Below, one piece after another: positions 5,921-9,247 of a stretch of DNA of 9,382 bases. This DNA is from a virus. Taxonomy: Duplodnaviria; Heunggongvirae; Uroviricota; Caudoviricetes. Every line of letters starts with the position of its first letter. Position 1 is the first letter of the stretch. The stretch lies in IMG/VR virus record IMGVR_UViG_2740892235_000008; one strand, written 5' to 3'. The position numbers and the translations under genes are program-made. The notes under the pieces were generated by a model that made no database searches, was not told where the DNA came from, and was given only the letters and a program-made list of their open reading frames with translations.

Positions 5921-5985
5921 AACGAACAGGCAGGACGCCCACGAAGTAGCCGCCGGTGGCGTATGAATGACCGGATGATTCGTTA
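5921..5985 (+). ncRNA. conserved 65-nt structured element, copy 1 (candidate cis-acting leader RNA, nut/put-like, or small RNA)
   Basis: Same 65-nt sequence as 8186-8250 except in a 20-nt core. Outer inverted repeat AACGAA…TTCGTT. Inner stem CCGGT(N12)ACCGG here versus CCTGG(N12)CCAGG in copy 2, i.e. two compensatory base-pair changes preserve the stem. Confidence 0.4.
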
Positions 5986-6009
5986 AATACTATGTGTAAG
6001 AGAGCGCAA

Positions 6010-6213
6010 ATGAACCGTTATTTCACATGCTCGTTTTGTGGCGCAAACGAGCTGCAGGCAAAAAAAATCATCGCCAAAGGCGGAAAAGATGAAGTTGCTA
6101 TCTGCTCTGAGTGCGTAGTCTTGTGTGTCGGGGCATTAATCAATAGCAGCACAACTATTCGGTTCACACCAAATGAGAATGCGCCTTTAGATGCGCGGAA
6201 ATCTGGAGGTTAA
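6010..6213 (+). CDS. small ClpX-type C4 zinc-finger (ClpX N-terminal ZBD-like) protein, about 67 aa
   Basis: Translation MNRYFTCSFCGANELQAKKIIAKGGKDEVAICSECVVLC… matches the remembered ClpX N-terminal zinc-binding signature ([33 protein letters not shown]). Purine-rich AAGAGAG 5 nt before ATG 6010; the ORF-track ATG at 5992 has no Shine-Dalgarno. Confidence 0.55.
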   Translation: MNRYFTCSFCGANELQAKKIIAKGGKDEVAICSECVVLCVGALINSSTTIRFTPNENAPLDARKSGG

Positions 6214-6221
6214 AGAACAAA

Positions 6222-6497
6222 ATGAAAGTCCAGATTTTAAACAATAGTGGTGAAGTCGTTTGGTCATACGACATAGCCGCTCCTGTAGATCAGAGCGGCG
6301 ATAGCTGGACCAATGGGAAACATCAGATTATGGCTGGAGTTGTATTCTCTTTACGCCGTGCTTTGGAACAGGCTGAAGTCTTTCCATCAGACCCTGAATG
6401 GAAATGGCCTTTTTCTATTTGTCCAAATTCGGAGAGTACATTTCAGAAAATTGGTCAGAAAGTCGCACTCGAAGAGCATCAGCCAACTGTTTCCTGA
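6222..6497 (+). CDS. hypothetical protein (91 aa)
   Basis: ORF-track ORF. GGAGG at 6205-6209 but with 12-nt spacing to the ATG. Its 3' 83 nt overlap the convergent ORF at 6415-6660, so the true extent of one of the two is uncertain. Confidence 0.4.
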   Translation: MKVQILNNSGEVVWSYDIAAPVDQSGDSWTNGKHQIMAGVVFSLRRALEQAEVFPSDPEWKWPFSICPNSESTFQKIGQKVALEEHQPTVS

Positions 6498-6660
6498 TTT
6501 TTTCAGGTAACTCGTCGGCATCGCAGAAACAACAACGCTCGATCATGTTGAAAGCCGATTCGTAGAACTGTTTCTGCTGAGTGTCGCTGAGACAGGAAAA
6601 GAGCGACGTTACGATGATTTTATTAATTGCATTATCAAGTTCTTTTTCATCAAAAGTCAT
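6415..6660 (-). CDS. hypothetical protein (81 aa), convergent to the preceding ORFs
   Basis: ATG 6658-6660 with AAGGA Shine-Dalgarno about 7 nt upstream (revcomp of 6661-6680 is atacataaaaggaaaatcaa). Protein-like composition with a CCFCD motif. Confidence 0.45.
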   Translation of the reverse strand: MTFDEKELDNAINKIIVTSLFSCLSDTQQKQFYESAFNMIERCCFCDADELPEKIRKQLADALRVRLSDQFSEMYSPNLDK

Positions 6661-7366: not shown

Positions 7367-7463
7367 ACGCCCTCCAAACTAAGTTTTGTTAGATGCTAAT
7401 TACAAATCTATCTTTGGTCAATAAAAACTAAGATTACTTAGCAATTAAAGAAATGGTGCTCCT
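7367..7463. promoter_or_regulatory. divergent promoter/operator region of immunity module 2
   Basis: Contains 14-bp dyads CTAAGTTTTGTTAG (7379-7392) and CTAAGATTACTTAG (7428-7441); consensus CTAAG-N4-sTTAG, unrelated to the module 1 operator motif. Confidence 0.5.
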
Positions 7464-8090
7464 ATGGAAACGGTTGGTCAGCGTATAAAAGCTCTGAGAA
7501 GAGTTACCAGAACGTCCCAGAAAGAATTGGGTAAATTTTGTGGAGTAAGCGACGTTGCTGTGGGGTACTGGGAGAAAGACATCAATACCCCTGGCGGGGA
7601 GGCACTTTCGAAATTAGCGAAGTTCTTCAATACGTCAATAGATTACATTCTTTATGGTGCTGAGTTTGAAGGCAAACTCGTCACAAACATGCGCAGAGTT
7701 CCTGTAATATCGTGGGTTCAGGCTGGGCAGTTTACTGAGTGCAGGGCAGCAGAAGTGTTTAGTGAAGTGGACAAGTGGGTAGATACATCATTAAAGGTTG
7801 GTGATAACTCATTTGCATTAGAGGTTAAAGGTGACTCCATGACTAACCCTAATGGCCTCCCAACAATACCAGAAGGCGCAACAGTGATTGTAGATCCAGA
7901 TGCAGAACCTCGTCATGGAAAAATAGTCATCGCTCGACTTGATGGAACAAACGAAGCTACAGTAAAAAAATTAGTCATCGATGGCCCTCAAAAGTTTTTA
8001 GTGCCATTAAATCCTCGGTATCCCAACATCCCTATCAATGGTAATTGCCTTATCATTGGTGTAGTCAAAGGAGTTCAATACGAACTCTAA
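7464..8090 (+). CDS. cI: CI-like phage repressor 2 (HTH plus S24 autopeptidase), 208 aa
   Basis: Translation has HTH (IKALRRVTRTSQKELGKFCGVSDVAVGYWEKD) and the S24 motifs GDSM … KKL. Sequence is unrelated to cI-1 apart from fold-level motifs. Confidence 0.9.
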   Translation: METVGQRIKALRRVTRTSQKELGKFCGVSDVAVGYWEKDINTPGGEALSKLAKFFNTSIDYILYGAEFEGKLVTNMRRVPVISWVQAGQFTECRAAEVFSEVDKWVDTSLKVGDNSFALEVKGDSMTNPNGLPTIPEGATVIVDPDAEPRHGKIVIARLDGTNEATVKKLVIDGPQKFLVPLNPRYPNIPINGNCLIIGVVKGVQYEL

Positions 8091-8112
8091 GATCTCTCTT
8101 CTCTAACTAAGG

Positions 8113-8145
8113 CACCGAACTAAGAAAAGTTTGGTGTTTTCTCTT
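8113..8145 (+). terminator. rho-independent terminator downstream of cI-2
   Basis: CACCGAAC-(8-nt loop)-GTTTGGTG, an 8-bp stem with one G-U pair, followed by TTTTCTCTT. Confidence 0.55.
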
Positions 8146-8172
8146 GCCATGATAACTAAGTTAAGTTAGATT
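8144..8172 (+). promoter_or_regulatory. candidate OL/pL of module 2: -35 TTGCCA (8144-8149), 17-bp spacer containing operator CTAAGTTAAGTTAG (8156-8169), -10 TAGATT (8167-8172)
   Basis: The operator matches the module 2 OR dyad consensus; promoter hexamers read directly. Confidence 0.4.
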
Positions 8173-8185
8173 TTATATCAAAGAT

Positions 8186-8250
8186 AACGAACAGGCAGGA
8201 CGCCCACGAAGTAGCCGCCTGGGGCATATGAAGTCCAGGATGATTCGTTA
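8186..8250 (+). ncRNA. conserved 65-nt structured element, copy 2
   Basis: See copy 1; starts only about 6-8 nt after the predicted pL2 transcription start. Confidence 0.4.
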
Positions 8251-8254
8251 GCAA

Positions 8255-8279
8255 CAAAAAAGCGCCCTACAGGACGCTT
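8255..8279 (-). terminator. rho-independent terminator for the convergent cargo gene (possibly bidirectional)
   Basis: On the minus-strand RNA: AGCGUCC-UGUA-GGGCGCU (7-bp stem, one G-U) followed by UUUUUU. On the plus strand the same hairpin has one C-A mismatch. Confidence 0.65.
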
Positions 8280-8317
8280 AGCTCTTTAACAATCAGGATA
8301 TCCACAACAGTAGTAAT

Positions 8318-8809
8318 CTACAGATTGCCGTTAAGTTTTCTGGACAACTCCTCAATGGATGGAGGCGATACGTAATCCGGATTTTTATTCATCAGAAACT
8401 TATTTTCACAGTGGAGGCACCTGCTTTTATGAAAAAGCTCATCTTCGCTAACCGGGAATGGTTGAAGTATCGATACTATCTTTTGTCCAAAACATTTTGG
8501 GCAAAGATGCATGGTTATGCTGCCACCGTTCACGATTACCTCCTTCGAGTATACAAAAGTACCCGACTCAAGTTGGTTAAGGATATAGCCTTCCGTCTGA
8601 GCCTCAAAGTTTTCGAATTCTGCAATTTTAGCTTTGAGAGAAGCATTTATTTCTTGATAAGAGCCCACCAGTTCAACGAGAGACACGCATTCGCGCTGAA
8701 TAGACGCAAGCTTTGAGTTCAGCTCACCAATAGCCGCATTTACTTCAGCTTGAGTTTTTGCCTCGTTCATTAGTTTTGCAATCTGGGCTGTTTCACGAAT
8801 AGCCGTCAT
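8318..8809 (-). CDS. hypothetical cargo protein, about 163 aa: N-terminal predicted coiled coil, C-terminal CxxC…CxxC zinc-ribbon-like motif
   Basis: In-frame ATG 8807-8809 (MTAIRETAQIAKLMNEAKTQAEV…) is the first start downstream of the shared flank; the ORF-track start at 9097 would read through the shared flank. The Shine-Dalgarno is weak and a later ATG at 8768-8770 (MNEAK) is possible. C-terminal …HLCPKCFGQKIV…CLHCENKF…; stop 8318-8320; own terminator at 8255-8279. Confidence 0.5.
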   Translation of the reverse strand: MTAIRETAQIAKLMNEAKTQAEVNAAIGELNSKLASIQRECVSLVELVGSYQEINASLKAKIAEFENFEAQTEGYILNQLESGTFVYSKEVIVNGGSITMHLCPKCFGQKIVSILQPFPVSEDELFHKSRCLHCENKFLMNKNPDYVSPPSIEELSRKLNGNL

Positions 8810-8847
8810 TGCTGCCGTTAATTCAGCGATCACATTGAATACTCTTA

Positions 8848-8901
8848 TTGTTGTTGGGGATATCCAGATTAACCGAATCCTTGTTGTTGGGGAATAACCA
8901 G
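8848..8901. repeat. two about 20-bp direct repeats TTGTTGTTGGGGA(T/A)A(T/A)CCAG (8848-8867, 8881-8901) upstream of the cargo gene start
   Basis: Direct reading. Lies in the putative promoter region of the minus-strand gene, 33-bp period. Confidence 0.5.
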
Positions 8902-9008
8902 GTCCACCTCGCCTGATGTGGCTAAAAGCAGGCACATAACAGCTAAGTATTTTCAACCAGAGAGAATCCTTAGCGTTGTGGTGAATGCGGCTCAGCGCAC
9001 GCGGGTTA
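8896..9008. repeat. conserved right-flank element, copy B
   Basis: 8930-9008 identical to 6725-6803; preceding about 34 bp similar with SNPs. Confidence 0.6.
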
Positions 9009-9120
9009 AGGTTGAGGCTGACAGTCGACCTTCTGTGGATACCCACCCGCCTGGTGTGCAACCTTCGCCAGGCACCGGGAGGCACCCGGCACCACAACTT
9101 TATGCTGTGTGTAGTCCTGG

Positions 9121-9166
9121 CGGTACCAGTTTGTACCCTTGCTTCCGGCTGGTACCGTCCTTTTTT
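9121..9166 (+). terminator. large hairpin plus T-tract (CGGTACCAG-N19-CTGGTACCG then TCCTTTTTT); candidate plus-strand terminator
   Basis: 9-bp perfect inverted repeat followed by a T6 run. An allelic copy at 9258-9304 keeps the stem and carries a CTCTTTTT tract. Confidence 0.5.
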
Positions 9167-9247
9167 GCAAAACAGAGAAGAGCATCACCGGACGACGGGC
9201 TCATAACCCAATCCATCCGGGCGGCTGCCACCGCAGGTGTTCTTCTC

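What the first reader, a model, noticed from the sequence alone, without database searches (positions are those of the whole stretch)
8251..8929. Self-contained convergent cargo gene (coiled coil plus zinc ribbon) in the variable slot of immunity module 2
A single 163-aa ORF (8318-8809, minus) sits between the shared 65-nt element and the shared right flank. It is convergent to the cI/pL transcription direction, has a strong terminator of its own (8255-8279) and a repeat-bearing upstream region (8848-8901). That is the architecture of a moron-type accessory gene expressed from the prophage. The protein has a predicted coiled-coil N-terminus and a C-terminal CxxC…CxxC motif and matches no family I recognise. 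The slot downstream of the repressor in lambdoid prophages classically holds exclusion or defense functions (rexAB, sieB), so this is the best single candidate here for an undescribed anti-phage or lysogenic-conversion function.
Basis: partly seen in the sequence, partly recalled or inferred. Interest (0 to 1): 0.75.

Follow-up and report, generated by a model that had tools for sequence, protein, structure and literature searches.

The report
Prophage Rip1-family pore-forming antiphage gene
The flagged gene is a real, conserved prophage accessory gene, but it is not an unknown: it belongs to the Rip1 family, described in 2026, whose members kill infected cells by forming a membrane pore around ring-shaped proteins of an invading phage.

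Summary
The ORF, its minus-strand terminator and the upstream repeats are all present. The segment is 100% identical to E. coli prophage DNA (DLP12-type prophage at tRNA-Arg).

Two corrections:
- The start is the conserved GTG at 8833 (171 aa, WP_000559922.1), not the ATG at 8809.
- The gene lies inside the early-left (pL) transcription unit, antisense to it, not merely downstream of the repressor.

The protein has no Pfam, NCBIfam or PADLOC hit, but it matches phrog_1244. It is a full-length homologue of Rip1 ("ring interacting pore 1") of phage HK446:
- Family profile against PDB 9oox: E=4.5e-17.
- BLASTP: 27% identity.

Rip1 (Patel et al., Nature 2026) is a single-protein abortive defence. 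It assembles around small-terminase or portal rings of an infecting phage and forms a pore. Homologues in HK446, HK620 (hkaP), DMS3 (gp25) and others are all single genes oriented against a lytic operon.

This is a new member of a known kind, and no function was tested here.

Still unexplained are the shared 92-nt upstream "head" used by other cargo genes, an rrn-type boxA, and a covarying 65-nt leader element.

The parts
8318..8833 (-). rip1-like CDS: 171 aa, GTG start, stop codon included. Identical to WP_000559922.1. N-terminal helices (aa 2-24, 28-79), then a C-terminal beta domain with CxxC...CxxC (C111, C114, C139, C142).
   Evidence: for the gene and model. Homology to HK446 Rip1 (PDB 9oox).
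8842..8846 (-). Shine-Dalgarno AAGAG, 8 nt upstream of the GTG start.
   Evidence: Read directly from the sequence. Conserved in the alignment.
8850..8941 (-). Conserved 92-nt 'head' upstream of the gene, presumed promoter and 5' leader. It contains the two CCCCAACAACAA repeats. It is shared almost unchanged with unrelated cargo genes in the same slot, and it is more conserved than the CDS. No consensus sigma-70 promoter was found. The candidate -10 is GTTAAT (8873-8868), which reads TATAAT in the 67%-identity alleles.
8291..8316 (.). Inverted copy of the head repeat. It pairs with 8845-8870 (26 nt, 81% complementary) and contains the palindromic core GGATATCC. It lies directly 3' of the stop codon. 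Function unknown.
8250..8279 (-). Intrinsic terminator for the minus-strand transcript: stem 8279..8260, then a T tract. It is part of the constant slot frame and is also retained with other cargo.
8280..8292 (+). rrn-type boxA, AGCTCTTTAACAA (12 of 13 positions), in the pL direction, immediately after the hairpin. It is the perfect TGCTCTTTAACAA in the Qin/dicB-type context.
   Evidence: Interpretation inferred.
8144..8172 (+). Predicted pL (TTGCCA-17-TAGATT), overlapped by ACTAAG-N4-CTTAG operators (8105-8170) of the same type as those between cro and cI (7378-7440). This puts the gene inside the pL transcription unit.
   Evidence: (family D2). Inferred, not mapped.
8186..8250 (+). 65-nt structured element at the 5' end of the predicted pL transcript. 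It forms the left border of the slot and is not part of the gene.

Best explanation
The gene encodes a Rip1-family protein, a single-protein abortive-infection defence carried by a DLP12-type lambdoid prophage.

Shown here:
- It is an intact, selectively maintained 171-aa protein.
- It is homologous over its full length, and similar in predicted fold, to HK446 Rip1.
- It is a single gene oriented against the prophage's early-left operon, with a terminator on its own strand.

Taken from the literature on the family (review PMC13434031 of Patel et al. 2026; PDB 9oox title):
- Rip1 is harmless alone.
- When a superinfecting phage makes its ring-shaped small terminase (E. coli phages) or portal (Pseudomonas phages), twelve Rip1 subunits bind around the ring through their C-terminal domains.
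- Their N-terminal amphipathic helices then form a membrane pore that kills the cell before phage maturation is complete.

Inferred by me:
- This protein works the same way, with the C-terminal Cys4 beta domain as sensor and helices 1-79 as effector.
- It is transcribed from the conserved 92-nt head while pL is repressed in the lysogen.
- Convergent pL transcription on induction lowers its expression, which would help spare the prophage's own packaging.
- Its trigger specificity is unknown.
For: Homology:
- The profile of 22 family members hits 9oox_L (HK446 Rip1) at E=4.5e-17, covering profile positions 6-151 and chain residues 16-160. The next hit is E=0.14.
- BLASTP gives 27% identity over 148 residues, E=2e-11.
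- All four Cys align.

Fold:
- The AF2 model has pLDDT 87.7.
- In Foldseek against the PDB, only 9oox_L and 9oox_M are significant (E=5e-7 and 8e-7, probability 1.0, TM on target 0.53 and 0.73).

Family links:
- HK446 Rip1 in turn matches DMS3-25, D3112 orf25 and JBD30 (31-33% identity, E about 1e-17) and HK620 hkaP.
- My protein matches the same set.
- DMS3-25 lies between the small-terminase-position gene and the large terminase gene, the position reported for Pseudomonas Rip1.

Context:
- The gene is counter-oriented in every distinct context examined. These were the DLP12-type prophage, HK620 and HK630 with one shared module, DMS3 (14), HK446 (50), a Qin/dicB-type prophage (57), RcWaterboi (90) and vB_EcoM-689R2 (91).

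Selection and spread:
- dN/dS is 0.13-0.23.
- The cassette is in 647 of 5426 complete E. coli genomes.
- The family has 2290 representatives at E<=1e-3, and all of the best 150 listed are short stand-alone proteins of 67-211 aa, mostly about 145-180 aa.

Mechanism of the family.
Against: - No experiment was done on this protein. Identity to the characterised members is only 27-30%.
- I could not read the primary paper. The mechanism is taken from a review, a meeting report and the PDB title.
- A simple hydrophobic-moment test did not single out an amphipathic N-terminal helix, either here or in HK446 Rip1, so that feature is unconfirmed.
- No consensus promoter was found on the minus strand upstream of the gene. 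Expression in the lysogen is inferred from architecture alone.
- PADLOC (2023) has no model for the family, so there is no independent defence annotation.
- HK446 Rip1 has a basic C-terminal part (net +7), whereas this one is -1. The partner surface may therefore differ.
Confidence: 0.75

Rival explanations
1. It is a Rip1 homologue whose main role is in the prophage's own life cycle. It might bind the phage's own small terminase or portal ring to time lysis or packaging, rather than defend against other phages.
For: In Pseudomonas Mu-like phages the gene sits between the terminase genes. The family's C-terminal domain binds terminase rings. The gene is widely kept in inducible phages such as PhiR49_1 and PhiR29.
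Against: It is oriented against the lytic operons in every context examined. A lytic-cycle function would be expected to be co-transcribed with those operons. In this slot it is freely replaced by unrelated cargo, so it is dispensable. The review reports defence by expression and deletion analyses.
Confidence: 0.1
2. It is a SieB-like or other superinfection-exclusion or abortive function that does not form a pore, as HK620 hkaP was annotated from its position alone.
For: It has the same position and orientation as lambda sieB (from my own knowledge of the lambda map). HK620 hkaP is annotated 'putative superinfection exclusion protein'.
Against: No Pfam family reached its threshold at E<=10, so SieB did not match either. 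There is no hydrophobic segment (the highest mean Eisenberg hydrophobicity over 19 aa is 0.35), whereas SieB is a membrane protein (own knowledge). Sequence and fold match Rip1 specifically.
Confidence: 0.05
3. It is a zinc-ribbon nucleic-acid or RNA-polymerase binding regulator (DksA/TraR-like: helical hairpin plus C4 zinc finger) that modulates host or prophage transcription.
For: It has long N-terminal helices plus CxxC...CxxC. There are weak sub-threshold NCBIfam hits to RNA polymerase subunit P and to a CxxC family (E 0.02-0.13).
Against: There is no hit to zf-dskA_traR or any Pfam family above threshold. The fold searches return Rip1, not DksA or TraR. The helices are modelled as one long helix plus a short one, not a DksA-type hairpin.
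Confidence: 0.03
4. It is a decaying or inert remnant with no current function.
For: The host prophage type (DLP12-like) is often defective. A few truncated copies exist (146-156 aa and 61 aa calls; partial hits).
Against: dN/dS is 0.13-0.23 with saturated synonymous divergence. Start codon, length and Cys residues are conserved across alleles of 55-93% identity. The gene is present in inducible, plaque-forming phages.
Confidence: 0.05

Closest known systems
Rip1 (ring interacting pore 1) of Escherichia phage HK446 (HK446_037, AFH20665.1; PDB 9oox, complex with T6 small terminase)
   Same: Full-length sequence homology (profile E=4.5e-17; 27% identity) and the same length class (164 vs 171 aa). 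Same predicted fold: N-terminal helices plus a C-terminal beta domain with four conserved Cys. Both are single genes antisense within the pL operon of a lambdoid phage.
   Different: Only 27% identical. The C-terminal part is near-neutral here and basic in HK446 Rip1. The backbones differ: DLP12-type prophage without an N gene in the region, against an HK97-like phage where rip1 abuts N. The trigger for this protein is unknown.
Rip1 of P. aeruginosa Mu-like prophages (the DMS3-25 / D3112 orf25 / JBD30 homologue)
   Same: Homologous (about 30% identity, E=6e-11 by tblastn). It is a stand-alone, counter-oriented gene in a temperate phage. The family is reported to sense portal protein in Pseudomonas phages.
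   Different: It is located between the terminase genes in the late region, not in the early-left operon. The host genus differs.
HK620 / HK630 HkaP
   Same: Homologous (29% identity, E=7e-13). Same position class: antisense in the pL operon between N/hkaQ and cIII. A 32-nt stretch of the upstream head (8904-8934) is also present about 70 nt upstream of hkaP.
   Different: It was never characterised and was annotated only by position as a putative superinfection exclusion protein.
Lambda SieB / RexAB (classical lysogen-expressed exclusion genes near the immunity region)
   Same: Expressed from the prophage, placed next to the immunity region, abortive outcome. sieB is likewise antisense to pL (own knowledge of the lambda map).
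   Different: No sequence or fold relationship. SieB and RexB are integral membrane proteins, whereas this protein has no hydrophobic segment.

Membership tests
Rip1 (ring interacting pore 1) antiphage family | Sequence homology over the whole protein to a characterised Rip1 | tested here: met
   Profile against PDB 9oox_L: E=4.5e-17, positions 6-151 of 171. BLASTP: E=2e-11, 27% identity. Reciprocal links to DMS3-25 and HkaP.
Rip1 (ring interacting pore 1) antiphage family | Two-part fold: N-terminal helical part plus a C-terminal ring-binding domain | tested here: met
Rip1 (ring interacting pore 1) antiphage family | Amphipathic N-terminal helix able to insert into the membrane | tested here: inconclusive
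   The maximum hydrophobic moment in the first 80 aa (0.44) is no higher than in shuffles (170 of 500 reach it). The same holds for HK446 Rip1 itself (230 of 500), so the test does not discriminate.
Rip1 (ring interacting pore 1) antiphage family | Single stand-alone gene in a prophage, outside the lytic operons' orientation | tested here: met
   Counter-oriented single gene in every context examined. All of the best 150 listed family representatives are short stand-alone proteins (67-211 aa) matched in a single stretch.
Rip1 (ring interacting pore 1) antiphage family | Forms a 12-mer around an oligomeric phage ring (small terminase 11-mer or portal) and makes a pore | not testable with these tools
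   This needs multimer modelling, biochemistry or cryo-EM. It is known only for HK446 Rip1 with T6 small terminase (PDB 9oox title; review).
Rip1 (ring interacting pore 1) antiphage family | Protects the lysogen against superinfecting phage; not toxic alone; escapers map to small terminase or portal | not testable with these tools
   Experimental only. Reported for other family members.
PHROG phrog_1244 | Significant match to the family HMM over most of its length | tested here: met
   E=2.4e-58, residues 1-148 on profile positions 9-153 of 157. The family is annotated 'unknown function'.
SieB superinfection exclusion | Homology to SieB and membrane-spanning segments | tested here: not met
   No Pfam family reached its threshold at E<=10, so SieB did not match. 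No hydrophobic stretch.
DksA/TraR zinc-finger regulators | Match to zf-dskA_traR and a coiled-coil hairpin fold | tested here: not met
   No Pfam hit to zf-dskA_traR. Fold searches do not return DksA or TraR among the top matches.

The most novel reading that the evidence does not exclude
The gene itself is a Rip1. The frame it sits in may be an undescribed, portable accessory-gene hotspot of enterobacterial lambdoid prophages.

A constant 92-nt head (8850-8941) drives whichever antisense cargo occupies the slot. The cargo seen were Rip1, ECs1072-family, LprI-like, BssS-like and several unknowns.

On the other strand, the pL transcript begins with a covarying 65-nt RNA, followed by a hairpin and an rrn-type boxA. 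Together these could form a protein-independent or Nus-only antitermination leader.

If this is right, the other cargo families are candidates for new defence or lysogenic-conversion genes, and the leader would be a new cis-acting RNA class.
Probability: 0.3. Interest if true: 0.6.

Novelty: new member of a known kind. Interest (0 to 1): 0.3.

Why it matters
The result assigns a probable function to a 'hypothetical protein' (WP_000559922.1 and its alleles). The cassette is carried by about 12% of complete E. coli genomes, many of them STEC. The family is phrog_1244, still labelled 'unknown function', and it includes HK620/HK630 hkaP, which has been unexplained since 2001.

It also predicts that these lysogens abort infections by phages whose small terminase or portal ring is recognised. 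That is relevant to phage host range and to phage therapy.

The result is not a new kind of system, because the family and its mechanism were published in 2026. The remaining open points are the trigger specificity of this divergent clade, how the resident prophage avoids self-triggering, and the shared regulatory frame of the slot.

Tried and rejected
- Pfam, NCBIfam and PADLOC scans of the protein gave only sub-threshold coiled-coil or zinc-ribbon noise.
- A literature search for 'hkaP' returned only unrelated substring hits.
- Two Pseudomonas exclusion papers concern other genes: Fc02 olg1/gene 10, and PlzR.
- The primary Rip1 paper is not held. No preprint was found.
- The hydrophobic-moment test for an amphipathic helix did not discriminate.
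- The sigma-70 consensus scan found no promoter on the minus strand upstream of the gene. The candidate -10 that I name is weak and unverified.
- I considered that the 8848-8901 repeats were the OL operators. I rejected this because the operators between cro and cI have a different motif (ACTAAG-N4-CTTAG), which recurs at 8105-8170, and the repeat motif occurs nowhere else in the 25.8-kb prophage segment.
- I considered that the flanking 26-nt inverted repeat marks a mobile cassette. The swap junctions with other cargo (about 8298 and 8849) cut through the repeats rather than outside them, so this remains unresolved.
- I tested whether the 65-nt element is HK022 put. A covariance model built from it finds nothing in the HK022 immunity region, HK620, HK630 or HK446. 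Rfam has no match. The model is narrow, so distant kinship is not excluded.
- The 259-aa TTG-extended ORF and the 243-aa call in PhiR49_1 are over-extensions. The upstream part is non-coding sequence shared with unrelated cargo.

Full report
**1. What is in the sequence**

The window is a chain of variant segments joined by runs of ten N. The flagged region has no joint, and 7400-9240 is 100% identical to several complete E. coli chromosomes. In strain RM10466 it lies in a DLP12-type lambdoid prophage integrated next to tRNA-Arg. The local gene order is cro, a LexA-family repressor ("cI"), this gene on the opposite strand, then yfdP-yfdQ-yfdR-yfdT-int. The same gene is in the inducible ECOR phages PhiR49_1 and PhiR29.

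- All homologues, down to 50% identity, conserve eight more residues (MIAELSAAM).
- All seven alleles I extracted start at a GTG.
- That GTG (8833) follows an AAGAG Shine-Dalgarno by 8 nt.
- PGAP calls the same 171-aa product, WP_000559922.1.

Pairwise dN/dS is 0.13-0.23, while synonymous sites are saturated against the more distant alleles. It is therefore a maintained protein-coding gene.

- The minus-strand terminator is confirmed: 8-bp stem at 8279..8260, 4-nt loop, then a T tract.
- The upstream direct repeats are confirmed, and there is a third, inverted copy directly after the stop codon.
- The shared 65-nt element and the shared right flank are confirmed.

**2. Where it sits**

The space between cro and cI holds ACTAAG-N4-CTTAG palindromes. 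The same motif recurs at 8105-8170, just after cI. There it overlaps the only plus-strand promoter-like site in the region, TTGCCA-17-TAGATT at 8144-8172. I read this site as OL/pL. The gene therefore lies inside the early-left transcription unit and antisense to it, rather than in a gap after the repressor. This is inferred from the sequence, not mapped.

**3. What the protein is**

Pfam, NCBIfam and PADLOC give nothing above threshold. PHROGs gives phrog_1244, annotated "unknown function", at E=2.4e-58.

tblastn against phage genomes finds these homologues:

| Homologue | Identity |
|---|---|
| Klebsiella phages | 48% |
| HK620 / HK630 / HK629 hkaP | 29% |
| gp25 of the P. aeruginosa Mu-like phages DMS3, JBD30, MP42 and others | 30% |

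A profile search of 1.84 billion cluster representatives returns 2290 proteins at E<=1e-3. All of the best 150 listed are short stand-alone proteins (67-211 aa, mostly about 145-180 aa) matched in a single stretch.

An AlphaFold model built on 22 homologues has pLDDT 87.7. It shows helices 2-24 and 28-79, followed by a beta domain that carries the four invariant Cys.

Three independent comparisons point to one solved structure, PDB 9oox. Its title is [quoted passage not shown].
- The family profile hits chain L at E=4.5e-17 over essentially the whole length. The next hit is E=0.14.
- In Foldseek, chains L and M of 9oox are the only significant matches (E about 5e-7, TM on target up to 0.73).

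Direct BLASTP gives 27% identity, E=2e-11, and the CxxC...CxxC motifs align. HK446 Rip1 also matches DMS3-25, D3112 orf25 and hkaP, so these proteins form one family.

**4. What the family does (from the literature, not tested here)**

[quoted passage not shown] It is not in the library. The following points come from a review (PMC13434031):
- Rip1 was found in a P. aeruginosa prophage, between the small and large terminase genes.
- It is not toxic on its own.
- Escape mutants carry changes in the portal protein (Pseudomonas phages) or the small terminase (E. coli phages).
- Twelve Rip1 subunits ring an 11-mer of small terminase. The C-terminal half contacts the ring and the N-terminal amphipathic helices form a pore.
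- The pore releases dye from liposomes and makes holes in cells, so the infected cell is lysed before phage maturation is complete.
- Homologues are widespread in proteobacteria, mostly in prophages.

A meeting report and a 2026 paper on terminase sensors agree with this account.

**5. Most likely mechanism here**

By homology, this protein is a Rip1-type sensor-effector. The Cys4 beta domain would recognise a ring-shaped packaging protein of an invading phage, and helices 1-79 would form the pore. I put this at 0.75. The homology and the architecture are shown; the activity is inferred.

Gene orientation is a consistent feature. In every context I looked at, the gene is a single gene pointing against a lytic operon:

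| Context | Position |
|---|---|
| DLP12-type prophage | Inside the pL unit |
| Qin/dicB-type prophage (93% allele) | Between the DUF1391 gene and dicB |
| HK620 / HK630 (one shared module) | Between N/hkaQ and cIII |
| HK446 | Abutting N |
| DMS3 | Between the terminase genes |
| Rhodobacter Mu-like RcWaterboi | Inside the early operon |
| vB_EcoM-689R2 | Next to the repressor |

I infer that the gene is transcribed while the lytic promoters are repressed. I also infer that convergent transcription after induction damps it, which would help the prophage avoid triggering its own Rip1. Neither point is tested.

The two halves of the protein have different histories in some alleles. The N-terminal half of L079 is close to L082, and its C-terminal half is close to the window allele. 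This fits shuffling between a sensor half and an effector half.

**6. The slot**

The cassette 8281-8941 occurs in 647 of 5426 complete E. coli genomes. About 780 more genomes have only its first 92 nt, 8941..8850.

In those genomes the same head, conserved up to about 12 nt before the start codon, precedes unrelated genes in the same orientation. Two examples are an ECs1072-family protein and a 167-aa protein. The swap junctions are at about 8298 and 8849.

I also looked at 119 IMG/VR loci fetched through the 65-nt element, which does not bias toward Rip1. Of these, 34 carry the head, and 26 have an ORF called next to it:

| Cargo next to the head | Loci |
|---|---|
| ECs1072 family | 15 |
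| Rip1 | 6 |
| LprI-like | 2 |
| BssS-like | 1 |
| Other unknowns | 2 |

None of these alternative cargo proteins matches a PADLOC family.

The head is nearly identical between alleles whose coding sequences are saturated at synonymous sites. A 32-nt part of it also lies upstream of hkaP and of HK446 rip1. It contains no consensus sigma-70 promoter, and its function is unproven.

The terminator hairpin also belongs to the constant frame. On the plus strand it is followed at once by AGCTCTTTAACAA, which matches 12 of 13 positions of the rrn boxA. In the Qin-type context a different hairpin is followed by the perfect TGCTCTTTAACAA.

**7. Comparison and novelty**

The gene passes every Rip1 membership feature that can be tested in silico: sequence, fold, stand-alone architecture and prophage context. 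The amphipathic-helix test was uninformative even for the reference protein. Oligomerisation, pore formation and protection cannot be tested with these tools.

The gene is not SieB and not DksA/TraR-like.

The family, its mechanism and its wide distribution were published in 2026. This is therefore a new, untested member of a known kind. I set interest at 0.3. What keeps it above zero is the divergence from the characterised members, the unknown trigger, and the shared regulatory frame.

**8. Side finding**

The 65-nt element (8186-8250; second copy at 5921-5985) is a structured element supported by covariation. On 32 distinct variants:
- 97.4% of cells pair.
- The covariation score is 0.296, against 0.093 in shuffles (0 of 500 shuffles reach it) and at most 0.055 when the 3' partners are slid.
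- Three pairs switch freely among GC, CG, UA and AU.

It lies a few bases after the predicted pL start. It occurs, unannotated, in SfII, SfIV, SfV, mEp460 and in Klebsiella, Citrobacter, Yersinia, Pantoea and Pectobacterium phages. It has no Rfam match. A covariance model built from it does not find it in the HK022 immunity region or in HK620, HK630 or HK446.

Its position resembles that of HK022 putL, which is about 70 nt long and lies just downstream of PL (PMC9378689). That is a lead only, not a tested relationship.

Noticed in passing
window 8186-8250 (+), second copy 5921-5985: A 65-nt element just after the predicted pL has strong base-pair covariation: 97.4% of cells paired, score 0.296 against 0.093 in shuffles, three pairs switching among GC, CG, UA and AU. 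It is widespread and unannotated in temperate phages of Escherichia, Shigella (SfII, SfIV, SfV), Klebsiella, Citrobacter, Yersinia, Pantoea and Pectobacterium. It has no Rfam family, and a covariance model built from it finds nothing in the HK022 immunity region. It may be a cis-acting leader RNA of the early-left operon.
   Followed up: partly
window 8280-8292 (+), with hairpin 8257-8279: An rrn-type boxA (AGCTCTTTAACAA, 12 of 13 positions) sits directly 3' of the hairpin that serves as the minus-strand terminator. In the Qin/dicB-type context a different hairpin is followed by the perfect TGCTCTTTAACAA. The hairpin may work on both strands, and the pair may be a Nus-dependent antitermination signal for pL.
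   Followed up: partly
window 8850-8941 (-): A 92-nt upstream 'head' is shared almost unchanged by at least seven unrelated antisense cargo genes in the same slot: ECs1072 family, Rip1, LprI-like, BssS-like and others. About 780 further complete E. coli genomes carry it without rip1. It is more conserved than the coding sequences it precedes, yet it lacks a consensus promoter. A 32-nt piece (8904-8934) also lies upstream of HK620 hkaP and HK446 rip1.
   Followed up: partly
window 8291-8316 and 8845-8870: A 26-nt inverted repeat (81% complementary, core GGATATCC) brackets the coding sequence. It is conserved in alleles down to 55% protein identity. It could pair in the mRNA (5' with 3' UTR) or bind a regulator. 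The swap junctions with other cargo cut through it.
   Followed up: no
window 8945-9168 (+): A sub-threshold Rfam match to the sRNA family STnc100 (40.3 bits against a gathering score of 47; E=4e-6) lies in the shared right flank, in the pL direction. It overlaps a region that PGAP annotates as a frameshifted hypothetical gene.
   Followed up: no
window 5992-6213 (+), 6222-6497 (+), 6415-6660 (-): The equivalent slot of immunity module 1 holds different cargo. One is a 73-aa protein with a ClpX-type C4 zinc finger (Pfam zf-C4_ClpX, E=1.4e-10). Another is a 91-aa ORF with no family. The third is an antisense 81-aa ORF similar to a 76-aa cargo seen behind the head in an IMG/VR locus (L148).
   Followed up: partly
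L079 / L082 compared with window 8318-8833: The Rip1 alleles are mosaics. The N-terminal 80 codons of L079 are close to L082 (dS 0.38), while its C-terminal part is closer to the window allele (dS 0.65 against 1.87). This suggests recombination between the helical half and the ring-binding half.
   Followed up: partly
whole window (N runs at 891, 1141, 1504, 2777, 3631, 6804, 9248): The window is a concatenation of near-duplicate variant segments joined by N10 linkers. There are two immunity modules, duplicated ymfL, rusA and replication-gene fragments, and a duplicated right end. It is not one contiguous natural locus.
   Followed up: partly
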